NCBI GenBank assembly: GCA_040905525.1
Contig: JBBDRJ010000016.1
Coordinates: forward strand, 7,004 to 71,003
Direction: 5' to 3'
Source: Actinomycetota bacterium
GTDB taxonomy: Bacteria; Actinomycetota; JAICYB01
Length of the DNA: 64,000 nucleotides
A model generated the notes under the pieces. That model made no database searches and had not been told where the DNA came from. It saw nothing but the letters and a program-made list of their open reading frames with translations. Of the stretch, positions 47,351-54,263 are shown in pieces. A program made the position numbers and the translations under genes. The stretch's first letter is position 1; each line of letters begins with the position of its first letter.

Positions 47351-48181
47351 TCAGCTCGGGGCGAGTTTTTCGAGGATCTCGCGCGACGGCGGCGAATAGA
47401 AGGACAGCACCACGTGATGGACGCCCGCCTCTTCCAAGGCATCGAGCTGCCCCGGAAGCGCAGCGAGGGTCGCGTCGTCGTTGGTGAAGATGAACTGCTG
47501 GACCGATCTGCGGATCTCGGCGGGGTCGCGGCCGACGTCTGAGCAATGCTCCTCGAGGATGCCGGACAGCCTCCGGTACTCGTCGGCCGAAGCCGCCGGA
47601 GCATTCCATTCGTCGGCGTGCTTGGCCACAACGCGCAGCGTCTTGCGCGGCCCCGAGCCCCCGATGACGATCGGGATCTTCGCTTGGACGGGCTTCGGCT
47701 CGCAGATGGCGTCGTGAAGCGTCCAGAACCGTCCGGCGTGATCGACCTTGTCCTCGGTCCACAACCGGCGGATGATCTCGCACGCCTCGTCGAGCATCGC
47801 GATACGGGTACCGGCCGACGGAAACGGGATCCCATACGTCAGATGCTCGGGCTCGTGCCAGGCCGCCCCGATCCCGAAATCCAGCCGCCCGCCCGAGATG
47901 TGGTCCACCGACACCGCCATGTTCGCGAGGATAGCGGGATGGCGGTAGGTGACACCGGTGACCATGCATCCGATGCGAGCACGCTTGGTGACCTTGCCCA
48001 TGGCGGCGAGCGTCGTCCAGCCCTCGAGGGTCGGCAGCTCGAGGGGCTGCCCGGCCAGGTACAAACCGTAGAAGTGGTCGTAGTTCCAGACCGCGTGGTA
48101 ACCGAGGTCGTCTGCGTCGCCCCAGAACCGCTCCAGAACGTCGTAGGAGAACACGGGCGCGATCTTGGCCGAGCGGAGCAC
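47351..48181 (-). CDS. LLM-class, probably F420-dependent, oxidoreductase
   Basis: WNYDHFYG, LEGWTTLAA, YRHPAILA, GGRLDFGIGAAW. Confidence 0.85.
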   Translation of the reverse strand: MLRSAKIAPVFSYDVLERFWGDADDLGYHAVWNYDHFYGLYLAGQPLELPTLEGWTTLAAMGKVTKRARIGCMVTGVTYRHPAILANMAVSVDHISGGRLDFGIGAAWHEPEHLTYGIPFPSAGTRIAMLDEACEIIRRLWTEDKVDHAGRFWTLHDAICEPKPVQAKIPIVIGGSGPRKTLRVVAKHADEWNAPAASADEYRRLSGILEEHCSDVGRDPAEIRRSVQQFIFTNDDATLAALPGQLDALEEAGVHHVVLSFYSPPSREILEKLAPS

Positions 48182-48207
48182 GCCGCCGATGCTATAGAAC
48201 CTGCCTC

Positions 48208-48648
48208 GTGACGGTTCGGGCGTGGTTCACCATCTCGGTCCTCGTGCTCGTTGCGCTGAGCGCGGCGGTCGTCGTGCGTTTCCTGGCTCCCGTCGATCCC
48301 CCGCCGATCTTCGTGAGGTCGGGCCAGACACGCCTGGTCGGCGTGCTCGACAAAGGCTGTTGGCCGCAGCGCGGTGGGGACCTGCGCTGCCAAGACGGCC
48401 CGGACGAAAGGCCGCGCGCAGGAACCCTCGCGCGCGAGGGGAAGCTCCGTGTCGTCGTCGCCTATCCGGCACAGCCCGATGACGGAACGATCCGCATCGA
48501 GCGCGAGCCCGGAAAAGAGATCTTGGACGAGGAGTGGGATGAGTCCTTCGACTACGAGCTCAAGGCCGGCAGCTACGTGCTGACGGCCGACGCGAGGTAT
48601 CCGGAGAAGGCTTACACCCGGTACGTGTTCAGGTTCCGCGTGCGCTGA
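48208..48648 (+). CDS. Hypothetical N-terminally anchored/secreted protein
   Basis: Hydrophobic N-terminus; GCW...RCQD Cys pair; beta-rich C-terminus. Confidence 0.6.
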   Translation: MTVRAWFTISVLVLVALSAAVVVRFLAPVDPPPIFVRSGQTRLVGVLDKGCWPQRGGDLRCQDGPDERPRAGTLAREGKLRVVVAYPAQPDDGTIRIEREPGKEILDEEWDESFDYELKAGSYVLTADARYPEKAYTRYVFRFRVR

Positions 48649-48653
48649 CCCGG

Positions 48654-49442
48654 CTAGGACGTGATGGTCACCGCGGCGGGATCGCCGAGCAGCTCGCGCG
48701 CGCTAGAACCGTTGCAGGCAACGGCGACGTGGCCGCCCGAGTCGATGTAGACCACAAGGGCGCCGGGCTCGCCGTCCGCGAACGTCCGACCGAGGCGAGC
48801 GTCGAAGCTTTCTGCGCCGTTGGAGACCGAGAGTTCGTCCCCAAAGTCGGCGGTGGCTAGATCAACATCGGTGGCGGCGAGCTGTAGGTTCCCGTACCAA
48901 TCGACGCGCAGGACATCGGCGGTCAGCTTCCCCGTTGATACGTCGACGTGCGCCGGCCGAAGACGAACGAGGTCGCCGATGTCGACGGCCGGACCGAACG
49001 CCTCCGGGGTGACACCGAGCGCAAGGTGCGCCGCGGCCGGCGCGAAGACGTCACGCCCGTGAAAGGTGGATGAAAGAGGCGCAAGCTGGTAGCGCTCCTC
49101 GGTCAGCTCGTGAGCCGCGACCGCTCCGCCCAGGGCGTCGGCCGCCGGCGGAAGGAGCCCGTTGTCGGGGCCGACCAGAAGCGCACCGGCGTTCGTCTGG
49201 ATCACAACGGCGCGGCGCTGTGTTCCCACGCCCGGATCCACGACGGCGAGGTGTACGGCCGTCGTCGGGGCGAAGGGCAGGCTCTGGCGAAGCAGAGTCG
49301 CGCCGGCACGAACGCCTCGGATCCCGTGGACGAGATCGACGATCCGCACCTCCGGAGCGATCCCGGCGATGACGAGACGGCACACGCCGACGTATTCGTC
49401 GGTGGGGCCGTAGTCGCTGGAGAAAGTGACGAGCTTCGTGAT
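48654..49442 (-). CDS. SAM hydrolase/halogenase (DUF62) family protein; probable ATC start
   Basis: LVTFSSDYG, VVDPGVGTQRR, GPDNG, TFHGRDVFAP, DWYGNL. The N-terminal motif lies upstream of the first canonical start. Confidence 0.85.
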   Translation of the reverse strand: MTKLVTFSSDYGPTDEYVGVCRLVIAGIAPEVRIVDLVHGIRGVRAGATLLRQSLPFAPTTAVHLAVVDPGVGTQRRAVVIQTNAGALLVGPDNGLLPPAADALGGAVAAHELTEERYQLAPLSSTFHGRDVFAPAAAHLALGVTPEAFGPAVDIGDLVRLRPAHVDVSTGKLTADVLRVDWYGNLQLAATDVDLATADFGDELSVSNGAESFDARLGRTFADGEPGALVVYIDSGGHVAVACNGSSARELLGDPAAVTITS

Positions 49443-49540
49443 TACTTCTTGTGGAGACGTTCCCAGCGCGTCTTCTTGAGGAGCTTCTTGTGCTTCTTCT
49501 TCCGCATCTTCTTGCGGCGCTTCTTCAGTACCGAGCCCAA
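49442..49540 (-). CDS. 30S ribosomal protein bS22 (AURKAIP1/COX24 family), 32 aa
   Basis: MGSVLKKRRKKMRKKKHKKLLKKTRWERLHKK; TTG start after AGGAG; actinobacterial synteny with HTH and proC. Confidence 0.92.
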   Translation of the reverse strand: MGSVLKKRRKKMRKKKHKKLLKKTRWERLHKK

Positions 49541-49586
49541 ACAGTTTCTCCTATTCTCGCTTCGGCAAAAAGCGCCTCAGCGATGG

Positions 49587-50480
49587 TTAGTCGGTCCCGA
49601 GCACCGAGCGCAGATCCACACGCTCGGTGATCTTTCCGTCTTGCGTCACGCGGACCGATCCAAGACGGAGCGCGCGAACACCCTCGGATACCGGCGTCAA
49701 AAGACGCAAGGCATCCTCGCGGTACTCAAGGATACCCAACCCCAGGCAGTCGCCCTCTCCGTTGTCCACGCCCACTAGTAGGCCGTCCAGATCCGACTGG
49801 TCGAAGATCGGAGGCAGGACGGGCATGAAGACCGTGGGCTTCACCCGCCACCGGTAGACCTGGGGGCCCAGGAAGGCCTTCAGGCGCTCCTCCCGGTACG
49901 CCGCCCTCTCGTCGACCGAGCGCATCCCGATCCCCGGGTGGACGCCGAGCTTGAGCACCTCGGCTCCCAGGAAGCGCTCCAGAACCCCCACGATCGGATC
50001 GAGCTCACCTCCCCGGGCCAGGGCCACGACGTGGCGGGGACGGCACAGCTCGGCCTTGGCCAGCTTGAGGAGCTGCCCCGACACCCCGTCGATCAGGCCT
50101 GAGGTGTCCACGATGATCAGTCGGGCCCCCATCTCGATGGCCCGCATGACGAGCTTGGCCGTTCCCGTCACCAAGGGGAGGTGGAAACCGCGGGGAGACA
50201 CCGCTCCAACGAAGGCCAGGGCGTCCGGTGGGGCATCTTCGGCCAGGTCGGCGCCTTCGCGGACGAGCTTCAGGCCGACGGTTCCCGGTGGGCCGATCGT
50301 GGACTGCGCAAGGTCGGCGTCGATGAGGGCTACTCCGTGTCCGGCATCCAGACCCGCGCGAGCCAGCGTCCGAGAGAAGGTCGTCTTCCCCGAATCGACT
50401 GCGCCCAGGACGAAAACGCGTCCCGGCTGCGCCGCAAGTGTCGCGATCGCGTCGGCGTGCGACTTTTCGATGTCTTCCAT
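49587..50480 (-). CDS. Clp1/Grc3-type polynucleotide 5'-kinase
   Basis: Walker A GAVDSGKTT, DADLAQSTIGPPG, IVDTSG, lid RAAYREERL. Confidence 0.75.
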   Translation of the reverse strand: MEDIEKSHADAIATLAAQPGRVFVLGAVDSGKTTFSRTLARAGLDAGHGVALIDADLAQSTIGPPGTVGLKLVREGADLAEDAPPDALAFVGAVSPRGFHLPLVTGTAKLVMRAIEMGARLIIVDTSGLIDGVSGQLLKLAKAELCRPRHVVALARGGELDPIVGVLERFLGAEVLKLGVHPGIGMRSVDERAAYREERLKAFLGPQVYRWRVKPTVFMPVLPPIFDQSDLDGLLVGVDNGEGDCLGLGILEYREDALRLLTPVSEGVRALRLGSVRVTQDGKITERVDLRSVLGTD

Positions 50481-50535
50481 GCGCCCTTCCAAGTTTCGGA
50501 GGAGCGCGGACGTCGACTACAGCTCTAAGGAAGGA

Positions 50536-50718
50536 TCAGAGACCGGTTACGGCTTGCGACTCCAGATACTCGTTCAGGTCGTATTCCCGAACTCTGTAGT
50601 TCCTGCCGACCCTGATGGCCTTGAGCTGTCCTCGCCGGATCAATCGGTAAACGGTCATCCTCGAAACACGCATCGCCAATGCAACTTCGGCGACGGTGAG
50701 TAGCCGAGCGACCATCAT
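50536..50718 (-). CDS. Excisionase-like HTH DNA-binding protein (Rv0500A/BdtA-like)
   Basis: LLTVAEVALAMRVSRMTVYRLI..G.L.AIRVGRNYRV. Confidence 0.88.
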   Translation of the reverse strand: MMVARLLTVAEVALAMRVSRMTVYRLIRRGQLKAIRVGRNYRVREYDLNEYLESQAVTGL

Positions 50719-50824
50719 TCGGGGATTTTCCCCGAACCCCCGGGGTTCGTCCGCCTCATCCTCAGCTTTCCTGTGAGTGAAGCGCTAAGGGTACTTCCCG
50801 CACCCCGGGGAGCGCCAAGGGAAT

Positions 50825-51580
50825 CTAGAGGCGTTCGATCACGAAACGTGCTAACGCTTCGTATGACGCCGCCGGACGGTTGTCGTCGCACAGGATCGGT
50901 GTCACTTTCAGCCCTCGGGCCCACGCGAGCACCAGTGCGGGGTCGTTCGTGTCGACAACGGCGACGGCATCGAGGCCTTGGGCAAGGGCGGCGCCGGTGA
51001 ATCCGTGATCACCGACGACGAGATCGGCGCGCAATCCGTTCGACAGAAGGAATTCCATCGCCCGCGGTGAGTGTGTGTGCACAAGGTCACCGCTCATCGA
51101 CACGCACGCCACGTCGCACACGTAACGGATCTGCGCACCGTTGATATATCCCTCGTAGGACTCACCTTCTGCAAAGCGCACGATCTCGGCTCCGCGATCG
51201 TTCATGGCTTGCGCTACGCGTGCATACATCTCCAGAGGACCGGTGGGATGACCGGTACCGAAGAAGACGCGCTCGCCCCGCGCGCACGCTTCGCTGAGTC
51301 GCGGTATGGCGAGCTCGATCTGTGCGACCGTCGCCGCCGGTGTTACCCACGACTTCCCGCCCGAGCCGTTGGTCCCCAAGAAGTCCCAATCGGCGAGCCG
51401 ATTGAGGGCCTCCACGATCTCCTCGGTGGTGGCCGGGAGCAGGTCGCCCAGACCGAAGGTCGTTCCGGGATCGCCGCCGACCAGCATCCGGATCTTGCGA
51501 TGGACGTCGTGCACCGGGGTGTCGATCCACCCGACCACCCGGTTGCTCTCCAGCGTTTCCGCCAGGCGTTGGGGGCTCAG
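50825..51580 (-). CDS. Actinobacterial 'phosphatase'-family protein; probable CTG start
   Basis: FFGTGHP, HTHSPRAM, DLVVGDHG.TG, DTNDPAL; AAGGAG 8 nt before CTG 51580, which overlaps the proC stop. Confidence 0.65.
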   Translation of the reverse strand: MSPQRLAETLESNRVVGWIDTPVHDVHRKIRMLVGGDPGTTFGLGDLLPATTEEIVEALNRLADWDFLGTNGSGGKSWVTPAATVAQIELAIPRLSEACARGERVFFGTGHPTGPLEMYARVAQAMNDRGAEIVRFAEGESYEGYINGAQIRYVCDVACVSMSGDLVHTHSPRAMEFLLSNGLRADLVVGDHGFTGAALAQGLDAVAVVDTNDPALVLAWARGLKVTPILCDDNRPAASYEALARFVIERL

Positions 51581-52377
51581 GACCCCAACTCCTTGCTGCG
51601 CCGGTGGGCTGCGCGCAGAGCCTCCCCGAAGGCCGCGCGAACGGCCATCGCCTCGAGCACGCTAAGGGCAGCGGCCGTCGTGCCGCCGGGTGATGTGACC
51701 TGTGCGCGCAAGATCGCCGGTGGATCCCCCGTCGTGCGCAGCATGGTCCCCGATCCTTCTATCGTCGCGAACGTCAGAGTCTCGGCTACGTCCCTCGGCA
51801 GGCCGAGAGCAACGGCGGCCTCGACCATCGCCTCGGCGACCAGGAAGATGTACGCCGGACCCGAGCCCGAAAGGGCGGTAACGGCGTCGAGCTTGTCTTC
51901 GTCGAGCCACACGACGGGACCGACCGCGCGGAAGATGTCGTCGGCCAAGGTCTTGGTCTCATCGGTTGCGTAGCGCCCGGCGGCCAGCGCGGTCACGCCG
52001 CGTCCGACGCGCGCCGGCGTGTTCGGCATCGCACGAACGACGGAGGCGCCCTTGCCGAGCTGGTCCTCGATAGCCGACGTCTTCAGGCCGGCGACGATCG
52101 ACACGATCCCGGCCGCGTCGGCAGATCCGCCGATCGTGTCCAGAGCCGCCGCCGCGTCCTGCGGCTTCACGGCCAGCAGAACGCCGGTGGCGTCGATGGC
52201 GGCCTCGGCCGGACTGGTCGTTGTTCGTACGCCGAGAGCCTTGCCCACCTGCTCGAGGCGATCCGCTGCGATGTCGGCAAGGATCATCTCGTCGGCCGAC
52301 CATCCCGCGTCGAGCAGCCCGCGGGCGAGGGCTTCCCCCATCATCCCCGCACCGATGAACGCTACGCGTCGTGTCAT
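51577..52377 (-). CDS. proC: Pyrroline-5-carboxylate reductase
   Basis: FIGAGMMG, AVKPQ, RAMPNTP, ALSGSGPAY, VTSPGGTT. Confidence 0.97.
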   Translation of the reverse strand: MTRRVAFIGAGMMGEALARGLLDAGWSADEMILADIAADRLEQVGKALGVRTTTSPAEAAIDATGVLLAVKPQDAAAALDTIGGSADAAGIVSIVAGLKTSAIEDQLGKGASVVRAMPNTPARVGRGVTALAAGRYATDETKTLADDIFRAVGPVVWLDEDKLDAVTALSGSGPAYIFLVAEAMVEAAVALGLPRDVAETLTFATIEGSGTMLRTTGDPPAILRAQVTSPGGTTAAALSVLEAMAVRAAFGEALRAAHRRSKELGS

Positions 52378-53588
52378 AGCTGCCTCCCGATGCGTTCTAT
52401 CTCCGCACCCTCTAGACAAGAGCTCACGAGTGCGTCGATGTCGAGTGAAGCTTCTGCTGCCACGCACGCTTCGACGGTGGCTCGGGTTGCGGGAGCCCTG
52501 GGGACGAAAAGCGAGCAGCAGTCTTCGTACGGAAGGATCGATGTCTCGTAGGTGCCGATCCGCTTGGCCTGCTCGACGATCTCTTGCTTGTCATCGCCGA
52601 TCAACGGACGCAACAGCGGCACCGGCGCGACATCGTCCACGCACCCGATGTTTTCCAGGGTCTGGGACGCGACCTGCCCGAGGCTGTCACCCGTCACCAG
52701 GGCCCGGGCTCCCTGGCTCCGCGCGATCTCGGCCCCCACTCTGACCATCAGGCGGCGATACAGGACGACGCGAAGGTCGGGCGAGGCGGTCAGCACGATC
52801 TGCTGCTGGGCGTCGCCGAGCGGGACGAGATACAGGGTCGTGTCGCCCTGCCAGTTCGCGATCATGCCGGCGAGCTCCGTGGCCTTCCGCACGCTCGAGC
52901 GGTCGGTGAAGGGGGCCGAATGGAAGTGGCAAAGGATCGCCTTCGCGCCGCGCTTGAGGATGCGGTAGGTGGCAACCGGAGAGTCGATGCCTCCGGACAG
53001 AAGGGATACGACCTTCCCGGACACGCCGACGGGAAGGCCACCCGGACCCTCGCGGCGGTCGACGTAGACGAACGCGCGAGCGCCGACCACTTCGACGTAA
53101 ACCGTCGCGTCCGGGGAGCCGAGGTTGACCGCTGCTCCCGTCGCGCCCTGGATCGCCGCACCGAGCTCAACGTTGATCTGTCTGGACGTGATCGGCAGCT
53201 CCTTCGTGGCGCGTCGAGCAGCCACGGCGAAGGTGGAGAACTCGCGGGGCTCCAGTCGCGCGAGTGCGGCATCGATCATCGCGCCGATCGCGACTTCGGT
53301 CACGGTGCACGGCGCAAACGCCGCAACACCGAACGTCGTGCCGATCCGGTCCAAGACTCCCTCGCTCGGTTCGGCCGATGTATGCAGAACCAGACGGCCG
53401 GTAAGAGCCTCGACCGTGGCCTCACCTCCGATGACGGACTCGAGGTTTCGCACGAGCCGGCGTTCGAAGAATCCACGGTTGCGGCCTTTCAGGCCGATCT
53501 CGTTGTAATGAACGACGACGCCAAGGTCACCGGACGTCCGGACGACGTGTCCGAAAGGCTGATCGAGTGCGGCGTTCTCCATGTCCAT
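52374..53588 (-). CDS. thiI: tRNA 4-thiouridine synthase ThiI (no C-terminal rhodanese)
   Basis: HYNEIGLKGRNR, THUMP region, SLLSGGIDSPVA, TGDSLGQVASQT, EDCC. Confidence 0.92.
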   Translation of the reverse strand: MDMENAALDQPFGHVVRTSGDLGVVVHYNEIGLKGRNRGFFERRLVRNLESVIGGEATVEALTGRLVLHTSAEPSEGVLDRIGTTFGVAAFAPCTVTEVAIGAMIDAALARLEPREFSTFAVAARRATKELPITSRQINVELGAAIQGATGAAVNLGSPDATVYVEVVGARAFVYVDRREGPGGLPVGVSGKVVSLLSGGIDSPVATYRILKRGAKAILCHFHSAPFTDRSSVRKATELAGMIANWQGDTTLYLVPLGDAQQQIVLTASPDLRVVLYRRLMVRVGAEIARSQGARALVTGDSLGQVASQTLENIGCVDDVAPVPLLRPLIGDDKQEIVEQAKRIGTYETSILPYEDCCSLFVPRAPATRATVEACVAAEASLDIDALVSSCLEGAEIERIGRQL

Positions 53589-53651
53589 AGGCTACGGCTC
53601 CGAACGGGCTCCCATCCCTTTACACTGTCTGGCACCCGGGGAGGGGAAAGC

Positions 53652-54263
53652 TTGCCAGACCGGATACCGCTCTTTCCGCTCCATACGCTGTTACTCCCGC
53701 ATACAGATCTCGGTGTTCACGTCTTCGAGGACAGGTACCGGTCCCTCGTTGCGGACTGCCTGAGCAACGGGCAGACGTTCGGTGTCTCGCTCATACGAAA
53801 CGGTCGCGAGGTGGGCGGTCCGGCCGACCCTCATACGATCGGCACCCTCGCGACGATCAGCGGTTACGCACGGCTGCCCGACGGACGTTACCTGCTCGAG
53901 GTCGAGGGCACGCGCAGGTTCCAGATCGAGTCGTCGGTGCGCAACGGGTCCTATCCCGCCGCAAAGGTCAGCTGGTTGCCCGAGCCCATAGGAAACTTCG
54001 CGAGGGCCCGGGTCGCCTCGAGCGAGGTCGCTCGCTTATTCCGGCTCTACCGCGCGCACAACGGCGACGGCGACCTGCCCGTGCACCTGCCTGTCGACCC
54101 GGTGGTCCGCTCCTACGTGATCGCGTCGCTGCTCCGCATCGAGCAGCCGGCCAAGCAGCGGCTGCTCGAGGCGGAGTCGGCCGCCGAGCGCCTGGGGGCC
54201 GAGGTGGAGATCCTGCGCCGTGAGATCGCGCTCCTGGATCACCTGCGTTTGCGGCGCGGCTAG
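53652..54263 (+). CDS. LON peptidase N-terminal (substrate-binding) domain protein
   Basis: IPLFPL..LLLP...HVFEDRYRSLV, GTLATI, EGTRRF, KQRLLE; TTG start. Confidence 0.85.
   Translation: MPDRIPLFPLHTLLLPHTDLGVHVFEDRYRSLVADCLSNGQTFGVSLIRNGREVGGPADPHTIGTLATISGYARLPDGRYLLEVEGTRRFQIESSVRNGSYPAAKVSWLPEPIGNFARARVASSEVARLFRLYRAHNGDGDLPVHLPVDPVVRSYVIASLLRIEQPAKQRLLEAESAAERLGAEVEILRREIALLDHLRLRRG

What the first reader, a model, noticed from the sequence alone, without database searches (positions are those of the whole stretch)
49587..51580. Clp1-type polynucleotide kinase in the conserved proC-HTH-bS22 locus, next to a putative phosphatase
Seen: P-loop GAVDSGKT, D-x-D-x-x-Q (DADLAQ), DTSG and an RxxxR lid, the pattern of the Clp1/Grc3/Nol9 RNA 5'-OH kinases. 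It is co-oriented with thiI, proC, a 'phosphatase'-family gene, an HTH gene and bS22. Known: Clp1 kinases are mainly eukaryotic/archaeal and sparse in bacteria, and end-healing uses kinase plus phosphatase (T4 Pnkp). Inference: this could be a split RNA end-healing or rRNA/tRNA maturation module tied to a ribosomal protein gene. No RNA ligase is in the window.
Basis: partly seen in the sequence, partly recalled or inferred. Interest (0 to 1): 0.65.

Follow-up and report, generated by a model that had tools for sequence, protein, structure and literature searches.

The report
Actinobacterial Clp1-type RNA kinase beside bS22
This is a genuine bacterial member of the Clp1 family of enzymes that phosphorylate the 5' ends of RNA; it sits in a gene cluster next to ribosomal protein bS22 that is conserved across many uncultured Actinomycetota, which makes it a useful lead but not a new kind of system.

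Summary
The 297-301 aa product of 49587-50480/50492 (-) matches Pfam CLP1_P (E 1e-29). It has an intact Walker A, Walker B (DADLAQ) and arginine lid. Its predicted fold matches C. elegans and human Clp1, Grc3 and NOL9 (Foldseek E 1e-18), not MobB or GTPases.

The neighbourhood is real and deeply conserved. Across 80 species loci the co-oriented order is PF15698 'phosphatase' - HTH - Clp1 - bS22 - SAM hydrolase, and bS22 follows Clp1 within 11-110 nt in 74 of them. The family is common in this phylum (138 of 401 genomes) and pipelines already label it 'GRC3/NOL9 kinase'.

The 'split end-healing module' reading is only partly supported:
- Kinase and PF15698 co-occur, and their genes overlap in one clade.
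- PF15698 also occurs without Clp1, still next to HTH-bS22.
- PF15698 has no recognisable phosphatase fold; its nearest PDB fold is ribosomal protein uS2.
- The genome has no dedicated 5'-P RNA ligase. RtcB lies on another contig.

New details: the clade lacks the Clp1 'clasp' tryptophan, its start site is buried in a hairpin, and the host family lacks RNase J but keeps RNase E/G.

Verdict: a new member of a known kind, of moderate interest.

The parts
49587..50480 (-). Clp1-family polynucleotide 5'-OH kinase homologue (297 aa from ATG 50480; the ORF tool's TTG 50492 gives 301 aa). It has an N-terminal helix, a P-loop kinase domain (res 30-207) and a beta-rich C-terminal domain (about 210-301).
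   Evidence: Pfam CLP1_P E 9.5e-30. PDB sequence hits are Clp1, NOL9 and Grc3. The AF2 model has pLDDT 93, and Foldseek matches 4ohv at E 1.5e-18, TM 0.71. Invariant residues are G30 D33 G35 K36 D58 D60 D129 K143 K146 R196 R200.
50481..50507 (-). Hairpin GCGCUC-C-UCCGA/AAC/UUGGA-A-GGGCGC that ends directly before ATG 50480 and sequesters the GGAAGGG Shine-Dalgarno sequence.
   Evidence: Fold. Four of five other species of the family have a 7-9 bp stem ending 0-2 nt before the ATG, with compensatory inner pairs. Across 91 orthologues the Clp1 start region folds at -12.4 kcal/mol, against -6.8 for bS22 starts and -7.4 for HTH starts.
49442..49540 (-). Ribosomal protein bS22 gene (32 aa, TTG start, AGGAG 7 nt upstream), 46 nt downstream of the Clp1 stop.
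   Evidence: bS22 lies directly downstream of Clp1 in 74 of 80 species loci.
50536..50718 (-). 60-aa excisionase/MerR-like HTH gene, of the type that sits between proC and bS22 in Mycobacterium as I recall it (Rv0500A; from my own knowledge, not checked here).
   Evidence: Pfam HTH_17 E 2e-17 and TIGR01764. Found upstream of Clp1 in 57 of 80 loci.
50825..51580 (-). PF15698 'Phosphatase'-family gene (237 aa from GTG 51538, or 251 aa from CTG 51580, which overlaps the proC stop). It is a putative metal-dependent hydrolase of unknown substrate.
   Evidence: Pfam E 1e-41 to 3e-43. Invariant residues are H111, H168, H170, D191, H192, D210, D213, D232, D233 and Y240. The AF2 model has pLDDT 96 and its best PDB fold matches are uS2. 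Found upstream of Clp1 in 68 of 80 loci.
48654..49385 (-). SAM hydroxide adenosyltransferase / (R)-SAM hydrolase gene directly after bS22.
   Evidence: Pfam SAM_HAT_N and SAM_HAT_C and NCBIfam. Found downstream in 76 of 80 loci.
51577..53588 (-). thiI and proC, coupled to each other (ATGA overlap at 52374-52377) and to the PF15698 gene. This extension of the cluster was seen only in the window's own family.
   Evidence: The thiI-proC-PF15698 order was seen only in own-family loci L022 and L023.

Best explanation
The gene encodes a catalytically competent prokaryotic Clp1-family polynucleotide kinase. It uses an NTP to phosphorylate 5'-OH ends, most likely of single-stranded RNA, as shown biochemically for Thermus scotoductus Ts-Clp1 and Pyrococcus Clp1.

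It belongs to one orthologous clade that is widespread in mostly uncultured Actinomycetota. In that clade it is an ancestral member of the co-oriented cluster PF15698 - HTH - Clp1 - bS22 - SAM hydrolase.

It is probably transcribed together with the highly expressed bS22 gene, while a hairpin over its own ribosome-binding site keeps its translation low.

The physiological role I think most likely is housekeeping conversion of 5'-OH RNA ends to 5'-monophosphate. Such ends arise from metal-independent cleavage, toxins or processing. Phosphorylation would let 5'-end-dependent enzymes handle the fragments. In this genome that means RNase E/G, since RNase J is absent. The logic is the one Grc3/Nol9 follow in eukaryotic pre-rRNA processing.

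Shown here: family membership, intact catalytic motifs, fold, synteny, phyletic pattern and a structured start region. Inferred: kinase activity, RNA as substrate, co-transcription, the link to RNase E/G and any link to the ribosome.
For: Family membership and fold:
- CLP1_P scores 104 bits.
- PDB sequence hits are only Clp1, NOL9 and Grc3.
- Foldseek top 23 hits are Clp1, Grc3 and NOL9 at E 1e-18 to 1e-10, TM 0.53-0.72. The next class, SRP54/FtsY, is at E 1e-4, TM 0.3.
- Walker A Lys/Thr, Walker B D58/D60 and lid R196/R200 are invariant in 35 sequences.
- Ts-Clp1, a bacterial member without the extra domains, is an active RNA>DNA 5'-kinase (PMC6777427).

Synteny and descent:
- bS22 follows within 11-110 nt, co-oriented, in 74 of 80 species.
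- The linked genes form one clade, with the window's family branching first, so the arrangement is ancestral.

Regulation and downstream enzymes:
- The Clp1 start region is structured while neighbouring starts are open.
- RNase E/G is present in the genome. RNase J is absent from all 10 genomes of the family.

Public pipelines already name close relatives 'polynucleotide 5'-hydroxyl-kinase GRC3/NOL9'.
Against: - No activity data exist for any actinobacterial member.
- The clasp motif [T/S/L]xGW, reported as important for RNA binding, has no tryptophan in any of 93 orthologues (L, F or M instead). Substrate binding may therefore differ.
- Yeast Clp1 shows that family members can be non-catalytic scaffolds.
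- Adjacency to a ribosomal protein gene does not prove a ribosomal role.
- Clp1 presence correlates only weakly with RNase J absence (37 of 74 versus 101 of 327, phylogenetically clustered).
- The same cluster exists without Clp1 in other lineages.
Confidence: 0.6

Rival explanations
1. Split RNA end-healing module. The Clp1 kinase heals 5'-OH ends and the PF15698 protein removes 2',3'-cyclic or 3'-phosphates. Together they prepare broken rRNA, tRNA or mRNA ends for religation or for further processing on or near the ribosome.
For: - The two genes co-occur: 23 genomes have both, 6 have Clp1 only, 5 have PF15698 only and 27 have neither, out of 61.
- PF15698 lies upstream of Clp1 in 68 of 80 loci.
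- In one clade (L016, L093, L094) the PF15698 stop overlaps the Clp1 start with no HTH or bS22 between, so that pair stays together when the other neighbours are gone.
- PF15698 has an invariant His/Asp constellation at strand ends, typical of a metal-dependent hydrolase.
Against: - The phosphatase function is only a Pfam name, with no literature.
- It has no PDB sequence relative and no phosphatase fold. The best fold match is uS2, TM 0.41-0.53.
- PF15698 sits next to HTH-bS22 without Clp1 in the Streptomyces-sized genome examined (all three such genomes carry two copies) and in G032.
- No fusion of PF15698 to a kinase or any other domain appears among the best 150 of 574 representative clusters.
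- The genome has no clear RNA_ligase-family (PF09414) RNA ligase, only a 25.8-bit hit, and most Clp1-positive genomes have none.
- RtcB, present on contig C8, needs no 5' kinase (from my own knowledge of RtcB chemistry).
Confidence: 0.2
2. The kinase is real, but its neighbours are a historical gene-order relic. Clp1 is simply one optional passenger in an old, slowly rearranging actinobacterial block, as adk is in the spc ribosomal operon. It has no functional tie to bS22, PF15698 or the SAM hydrolase.
For: - The block PF15698-HTH-bS22(-SAM hydrolase) exists intact without Clp1 (L102, L105).
- Clp1 is present in only 34% of the phylum.
- Some clades keep Clp1 next to the SAM hydrolase only (L106, L107) or with no conserved neighbours (L003, L004, L015).
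- The neighbours have unrelated biochemistry (proline synthesis, SAM hydrolysis).
Against: - The very short, co-oriented Clp1-bS22 spacing persists across sequences only 45-50% identical.
- PF15698 and Clp1 overlap stop to start in one clade.
- A distinctive structured start region suggests tuned expression within a shared transcript.
Confidence: 0.3
3. It is not an RNA kinase. It is either a non-catalytic NTP-binding scaffold like yeast Clp1, or a kinase for another 5'-OH substrate. Candidates are DNA ends or a nucleoside such as the adenosine released by the neighbouring SAM hydrolase.
For: - The RNA-binding clasp tryptophan is missing in all 93 orthologues.
- The SAM hydrolase gene is the most persistent neighbour (76 of 80 loci, and still adjacent in L106 and L107).
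- Prokaryotic Clp1 enzymes also phosphorylate DNA (PMC6777427).
Against: - The catalytic Asp, Lys and Arg residues are invariant. That argues against a dead scaffold, because yeast Clp1 lost activity through mutations in this domain.
- The whole-protein fold, including the C-terminal domain, superposes on RNA-bound C. elegans Clp1.
- No evidence for a small-molecule substrate exists in this family.
Confidence: 0.12

Closest known systems
Thermus scotoductus Ts-Clp1 and Pyrococcus Ph-/Pf-Clp1 (prokaryotic Clp1 polynucleotide 5'-kinases; Saito et al. 2019, PMC6777427; Jain and Shuman 2009 as cited there)
   Same: - Same Pfam CLP1_P kinase domain placed near the N-terminus.
[quoted passage not shown] - One copy per genome.
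- Previously annotated as GTPase or hypothetical.
   Different: - The actinobacterial clade keeps a roughly 90-aa beta-rich C-terminal domain that superposes on the Clp1 C-terminal domain. Ts-Clp1 is described as lacking N- and C-terminal domains.
- The clasp Trp is replaced.
- It is embedded in a conserved cluster next to bS22.
- It is common in its phylum (34%) rather than sporadic.
- It has no biochemical data.
Eukaryotic Grc3/Nol9 (with Las1 and Rat1/Xrn2) and Clp1 (with TSEN)
   Same: - Fold and catalytic motifs (Foldseek E 1e-18 to 1e-10).
- Proposed logic: phosphorylate a 5'-OH so that a 5'-P-dependent nuclease can act.
- Genomic tie to the ribosome, here through bS22.
   Different: - No Las1/HEPN or TSEN partner was identified.
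- No N-terminal domain.
- No 5'-3' exonuclease (RNase J) in this genome, only RNase E/G.
- The ribosome link rests on gene order alone.
T4 Pnkp and bacterial Pnkp-Hen1 end-healing systems
   Same: The concept of a 5'-kinase plus a 3'-phosphoesterase encoded together.
   Different: - The kinase belongs to the Clp1 branch. No hit to a T4-Pnk-type kinase family appeared in the Pfam or NCBIfam scans.
- The neighbour gave no Pfam hit to a HAD or calcineurin-type phosphatase family even at E up to 10, and no phosphatase was among the PDB fold matches listed.
- No ligase domain or ligase gene is in the cluster.
- Hen1 was not searched for.
Mycobacterium/Streptomyces proC - HTH (Rv0500A type) - bS22 locus
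   Same: The same HTH-bS22 core. PF15698 lies upstream in the Streptomyces-sized genome examined (L102).
   Different: The sampled large-genome actinomycetes lack Clp1 between HTH and bS22. The gene order in Mycobacterium itself is from my own knowledge and was not tested here.

Membership tests
Clp1/Grc3/Nol9 polynucleotide 5'-OH kinase family (Pfam CLP1_P, PF16575) | Profile HMM match above the curated threshold | tested here: met
   104.3 bits against a cut-off of 26.6, E 9.5e-30, residues 30-207 covering profile positions 1-185 of 188. It is the single copy in the genome.
Clp1/Grc3/Nol9 polynucleotide 5'-OH kinase family (Pfam CLP1_P, PF16575) | Walker A GxxxxGK[S/T] | tested here: met
   G30-A-V-D-S-G-K36-T37. 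G30, D33, G35 and K36 are invariant in 35 sequences.
Clp1/Grc3/Nol9 polynucleotide 5'-OH kinase family (Pfam CLP1_P, PF16575) | Walker B [D/E]hhQ with the catalytic Asp | tested here: met
   D58-A-D60-L-A-Q63. D58 and D60 are invariant. The motif aligns to ELDVGQ of C. elegans Clp1. Q is replaced by R in one small clade.
Clp1/Grc3/Nol9 polynucleotide 5'-OH kinase family (Pfam CLP1_P, PF16575) | Clasp motif [T/S/L]xGW (RNA-binding Trp) | tested here: not met
   The window has T130-S-G-L133. At the Trp position 93 orthologues have L 59, F 11, M 8, E 5, Y 4 and others 6, with no W. The motif definition is from PMC6777427. This is a subfamily deviation. The HMM, fold and catalytic residues still place the protein in the family.
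Clp1/Grc3/Nol9 polynucleotide 5'-OH kinase family (Pfam CLP1_P, PF16575) | Lid motif RxxxxR | tested here: met
   The window has R191-SVDE-R196 followed by R200. R196 and R200 are invariant. The first Arg is present in only 40 of 97 orthologues (T in 43).
Clp1/Grc3/Nol9 polynucleotide 5'-OH kinase family (Pfam CLP1_P, PF16575) | Clp1-type three-dimensional fold (P-loop domain plus C-terminal domain) | tested here: met
   The AF2 model has pLDDT 93. Foldseek against the PDB gives 4ohv at E 1.5e-18, TM 0.71 over 312 columns, then human CLP1, yeast Clp1, Grc3 and NOL9. The eukaryotic N-terminal domain is absent, as in other prokaryotic members.
Clp1/Grc3/Nol9 polynucleotide 5'-OH kinase family (Pfam CLP1_P, PF16575) | NTP-dependent phosphorylation of 5'-OH polynucleotide ends | not testable with these tools
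   This needs an enzyme assay. The only bacterial precedent is Ts-Clp1 (PMC6777427).
   There is no MobB hit. Non-Clp1 hits are marginal: CbiA E 1e-3, below its cut-off, and SRP54/FtsY at Foldseek E about 1e-4, TM about 0.3.
Kinase-phosphatase end-healing systems (T4 Pnkp, bacterial Pnkp-Hen1) | A 3'-phosphatase or cyclic phosphodiesterase of a known phosphoesterase fold encoded with the kinase | tested here: not met
   The neighbour matches only PF15698 and has no PDB sequence relative. Its model (pLDDT 96) best matches ribosomal protein uS2 and then an SIS isomerase. A metal-hydrolase active site is plausible from the invariant His/Asp residues but is unproven.
Kinase-phosphatase end-healing systems (T4 Pnkp, bacterial Pnkp-Hen1) | A 5'-P-dependent RNA ligase (and Hen1) partner in the cluster or genome | tested here: not met
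   The window holds no RtcB or RNA_ligase (PF09414) hit. PF09414 gives only a 25.8-bit hit on contig C13 in an open frame of about 500 aa, which I take to be an ATP-dependent DNA ligase (not checked). Most Clp1-positive genomes have none. RtcB is present on contig C8 but does not use 5'-P ends (my own knowledge). Hen1 was not searched for.
PF15698 'Phosphatase' family (the neighbour gene) | Profile HMM match above threshold | tested here: met
   143-148 bits against a cut-off of 28.4. The family is small, with 574 representative clusters at 50% identity, all single-domain among those inspected.
PF15698 'Phosphatase' family (the neighbour gene) | Demonstrated phosphatase activity | not testable with these tools
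   No paper in the searched library cites the family. Source names are 'hypothetical protein' or 'phosphatase'.

The most novel reading that the evidence does not exclude
PF15698 is an enzyme family with no solved relative, a uS2-like fold and an invariant His/Asp site. Together with a tryptophan-less Clp1 kinase it would form an undescribed two-enzyme RNA-end processing unit that acts on the small ribosomal subunit or on 16S rRNA ends. It would be co-expressed with bS22, and it would matter most in actinobacterial lineages that have lost RNase J.
Probability: 0.12. Interest if true: 0.75.

Novelty: new member of a known kind. Interest (0 to 1): 0.42.

Why it matters
Bacterial Clp1 kinases have one biochemical characterisation (Thermus) and no known physiological role. 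They were thought to occur in under 1% of bacteria. Here they turn out to be a regular, vertically inherited feature of about a third of sampled Actinomycetota. They are fixed next to a ribosomal protein gene and an uncharacterised putative hydrolase. That gives a concrete, testable entry point into three things:
- how bacteria deal with 5'-OH RNA ends;
- the function of PF15698;
- RNA decay in actinobacteria that lack RNase J.

It does not reveal a new type of system by itself.

Tried and rejected
- MobB/GTPase identity: rejected.
- PF15698-Clp1 fusion proteins: the long open frames in L016, L017 and L020 are high-GC artefacts. The genes are adjacent in different frames. No fused form appears among the best 150 PF15698 representatives, and the longer members carry no extra Pfam domain.
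- 'Kinase feeds RNase J' mechanism: rejected for this genome, because RNase J is absent from all 10 genomes of the family. Across the phylum the association between Clp1 presence and RNase J absence is weak (50% versus 31%).
- RtcB co-occurrence: 22 of 29 Clp1-positive versus 16 of 32 Clp1-negative genomes. This is not convincing.
- Homology of PF15698 to uS2 by profile comparison: only 14% probability over 39 columns. The likeness is at fold level only.
- Other contexts of PF15698 (second Streptomyces-like copy, G033) gave no functional hint.
- Rfam: no known RNA family in 48000-54000.
- RNAalifold on a MAFFT alignment of the start-region hairpins failed because the stems were misaligned. Per-sequence folds were used instead.
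- A first test of Shine-Dalgarno pairing probability was only modestly above controls (0.70 versus 0.57-0.64). Comparing local folding energy with neighbouring gene starts separated them clearly.
- The first alignment was too divergent for the search for related loci. A narrower one worked.
Full report
**What is there.** On the - strand the window carries a tight run of genes:
- thiI, 52374-53588
- proC, 51577-52377, whose ATG overlaps the thiI stop as ATGA
- a PF15698 'Phosphatase'-family gene, 50825-51538 from GTG or -51580 from a CTG that overlaps the proC stop
- a 60-aa excisionase-type HTH gene, 50536-50718
- the gene in question, 49587-50480/50492
- the 32-aa ribosomal protein bS22 gene, 49442-49540
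- a SAM hydroxide adenosyltransferase / (R)-SAM hydrolase gene, 48654-49385

Pfam and NCBIfam confirm every assignment. The region is 62-69% G+C with no compositional break. Rfam finds no known RNA family. Promoter and terminator scans are uninformative.

- It matches CLP1_P at 104 bits (cut-off 26.6, E 9.5e-30).
- Its only significant PDB sequence matches are C. elegans and human Clp1, NOL9 and Grc3.
- An AlphaFold2 model built on 35 orthologues (pLDDT 93) superposes over its whole length on C. elegans Clp1 (Foldseek E 1.5e-18, TM 0.71), then on human CLP1, yeast Clp1, Grc3 and NOL9.
- The next structural class (SRP54/FtsY) is fourteen orders of magnitude weaker.

The protein has a single N-terminal helix in place of the eukaryotic N-terminal domain. 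It also has a beta-rich C-terminal domain that aligns with the Clp1 C-terminal domain. The public gene call and the orthologues start at ATG 50480, giving 297 aa.

**Membership in detail.** I used the motif definitions in Saito et al. 2019 (PMC6777427).
- Walker A is present and invariant across orthologues.
- Walker B (D60-L-A-Q63) is present, with D58 and D60 invariant.
- The lid (R191...R196, plus R200) is present, with R196 and R200 invariant.
- The clasp motif [T/S/L]xGW is not met. None of 93 orthologues has the tryptophan (L 59, F 11, M 8, E 5, Y 4).

This is a real subfamily peculiarity and leaves some doubt about how the substrate is held.

**It is not rare here, and it is already annotated.**
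- Saito et al. found Clp1 in 0.9% of bacteria and showed that Thermus scotoductus Ts-Clp1 is an RNA>DNA 5'-kinase.
- In this phylum the domain occurs once per genome in 29 of 61 relatives. That includes 8 of 9 genera of the window's family.
- It occurs in 138 of 401 evenly drawn genomes, or 102 of 249 genera.
- A scan of one genome per species found at least 407 loci. The best 80 are all uncultured Actinomycetota MAGs.
- Public sources already call close relatives 'polynucleotide 5'-hydroxyl-kinase GRC3/NOL9', 'polynucleotide 5'-kinase involved in rRNA processing' or 'Clp1/GlmU family protein'.

**Synteny.** I ran jackhmmer profiles of the window's proteins on 80 species loci. The co-oriented order PF15698 - HTH - Clp1 - bS22 - SAM hydrolase is the rule:
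- bS22 follows Clp1 in 74 of 80, with gaps of 11-110 nt in most;
- the SAM hydrolase follows in 76 of 80;
- PF15698 precedes in 68 of 80;
- HTH precedes in 57 of 80.

A maximum-likelihood tree puts all bS22-linked kinases in one clade, with the window's family branching first. The few unlinked forms are either nested within that clade or belong to a distant 33-36% identical outgroup with no conserved neighbours. These 80 loci were chosen by similarity to the query, so they describe the orthologous clade and not all bacterial Clp1.

**Is it a kinase-phosphatase module?** Evidence for:
- The two genes co-occur: 23 genomes with both, 6 with Clp1 only, 5 with PF15698 only and 27 with neither.
- In one clade the PF15698 stop overlaps or abuts the Clp1 start, with neither HTH nor bS22 present (L016, L093, L094).

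Evidence against:
- PF15698 sits beside HTH-bS22 without Clp1 in the Streptomyces-sized genome examined (all three such genomes carry two copies) and in G032.
- 'Phosphatase' is only a database name. No paper in the library cites the family, and sources call the protein hypothetical.
- It has no PDB sequence relative.
- Its very confident model (pLDDT 96) matches no phosphatase. The top 48 PDB fold matches are ribosomal protein uS2 (E 5e-4, TM 0.41-0.53).
- A profile comparison with uS2 gives only 14% probability over one strand-helix-strand segment, although the motifs D-T-N-D-P and D-D sit at equivalent strand ends.
- The invariant residues H111, H168, H170, D191, H192, D210, D213, D232 and D233 do look like a metal-hydrolase site, but the substrate is unknown.
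- No fusion proteins exist among the best 150 of 574 representative clusters.
- The genome has RtcB on another contig. It has no clear RNA_ligase-family (PF09414) RNA ligase.

I rate the end-healing reading at about 0.2.

**Mechanism.** I first expected the 5'-phosphate to license RNase J. That fails here, because RNase J is absent from the window's genome and from all ten genomes of its family. It is also absent from 74 of 401 genomes of the phylum. RNase E/G is present. Clp1 is somewhat commoner where RNase J is missing (37 of 74 versus 101 of 327), but the pattern follows a few families and is not compelling. The best-supported account is therefore a 5'-OH RNA kinase whose products can be recognised by the 5'-monophosphate-dependent RNase E/G. 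This step is an inference.

**Regulation.**
- The Shine-Dalgarno sequence GGAAGGG and the bases up to the ATG lie in a hairpin at 50481-50507.
- Four of five other species of the family have a 7-9 bp stem ending 0-2 nt before the ATG, with compensatory inner pairs.
- Across 91 orthologues the 39 nt ending at the Clp1 start codon fold at -12.4 kcal/mol. That is stronger than typical windows of the same loci.
- The bS22 and HTH start regions are unusually open, at -6.8 and -7.4 kcal/mol. Only 2-4% of them fall in the most structured decile, against 29% for Clp1.
- This fits low translation of an enzyme encoded on the same transcript as an abundant ribosomal protein. It agrees with an earlier agent's note on a homologue in another genome.

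**Verdict.** This is a true Clp1-family kinase homologue in a deeply conserved actinobacterial cluster.
- It is a new member (a distinct, Trp-less, bS22-linked clade) of a known kind.
- The synteny, the enigmatic PF15698 partner and the RNase J-less background make it a reasonable experimental lead. Nothing here shows a new mechanism.

Noticed in passing
whole genome G000 and relatives (no window coordinates): RNase J (TIGR00649) is absent from the window's genome (98% complete) and from all 10 genomes of its family. It is also absent from every sampled genome of family f10, and from 74 of 401 genomes of the phylum. RNase E/G is present in the window's genome and family. Loss of RNase J at family level is unusual for Actinomycetota.
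   Followed up: partly
window 50825-51580 (-): The PF15698 'Phosphatase' protein gives a very confident model (pLDDT 96) whose nearest PDB folds are all ribosomal protein uS2 (top 48 hits, TM 0.41-0.53). Its motifs D(T)NDP and DD parallel uS2's DTNCDP and GNDDA at equivalent strand ends. Profile homology is weak (14%). The family may be an enzymatic relative of the uS2 fold.
   Followed up: partly
window 50481-50507 (-): A hairpin sequesters the Clp1 Shine-Dalgarno sequence up to the ATG at 50480. Structured start regions are typical of the orthologues, while the bS22 and HTH starts are open.
   Followed up: partly
window 51577-51580 (-): The PF15698 gene probably starts at CTG 51580, overlapping the proC stop (CTGA). 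The sister species has a codon at the same position that the alignment tool reads as a canonical start. The extra 14 residues form a confidently predicted helix. The public gene call uses GTG 51538 instead.
   Followed up: partly
window 52374-52377 (-): The thiI stop and the proC start overlap as ATGA. The thiI-proC-PF15698 run is translationally coupled, and this extension was seen only in the window's own family.
   Followed up: no
window 48654-49444 (-); loci L022-L101: A SAM hydroxide adenosyltransferase / (R)-SAM hydrolase gene is the most persistent neighbour of the kinase. It lies downstream in 76 of 80 loci and is still adjacent, divergently, in L106 and L107. Its family N-terminus may begin upstream of the first canonical start at 49385, as another first-stage note says.
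   Followed up: no
G002:C1:2293937-2294393 (same genus): In a sister genome the Clp1 gene is split into two frames (matches to profile positions 27-73 and 94-185). It is either a pseudogene or an assembly error in a 75%-complete MAG.
   Followed up: no
L102 and L103 (G059, 9.2 Mb genome): Streptomyces-sized genomes carry two PF15698 copies and no Clp1. In the one examined, one copy lies in deacetylase - PF15698 - HTH - bS22 - epimerase, and the other lies near arginase and acyl-CoA dehydrogenase genes.
   Followed up: partly
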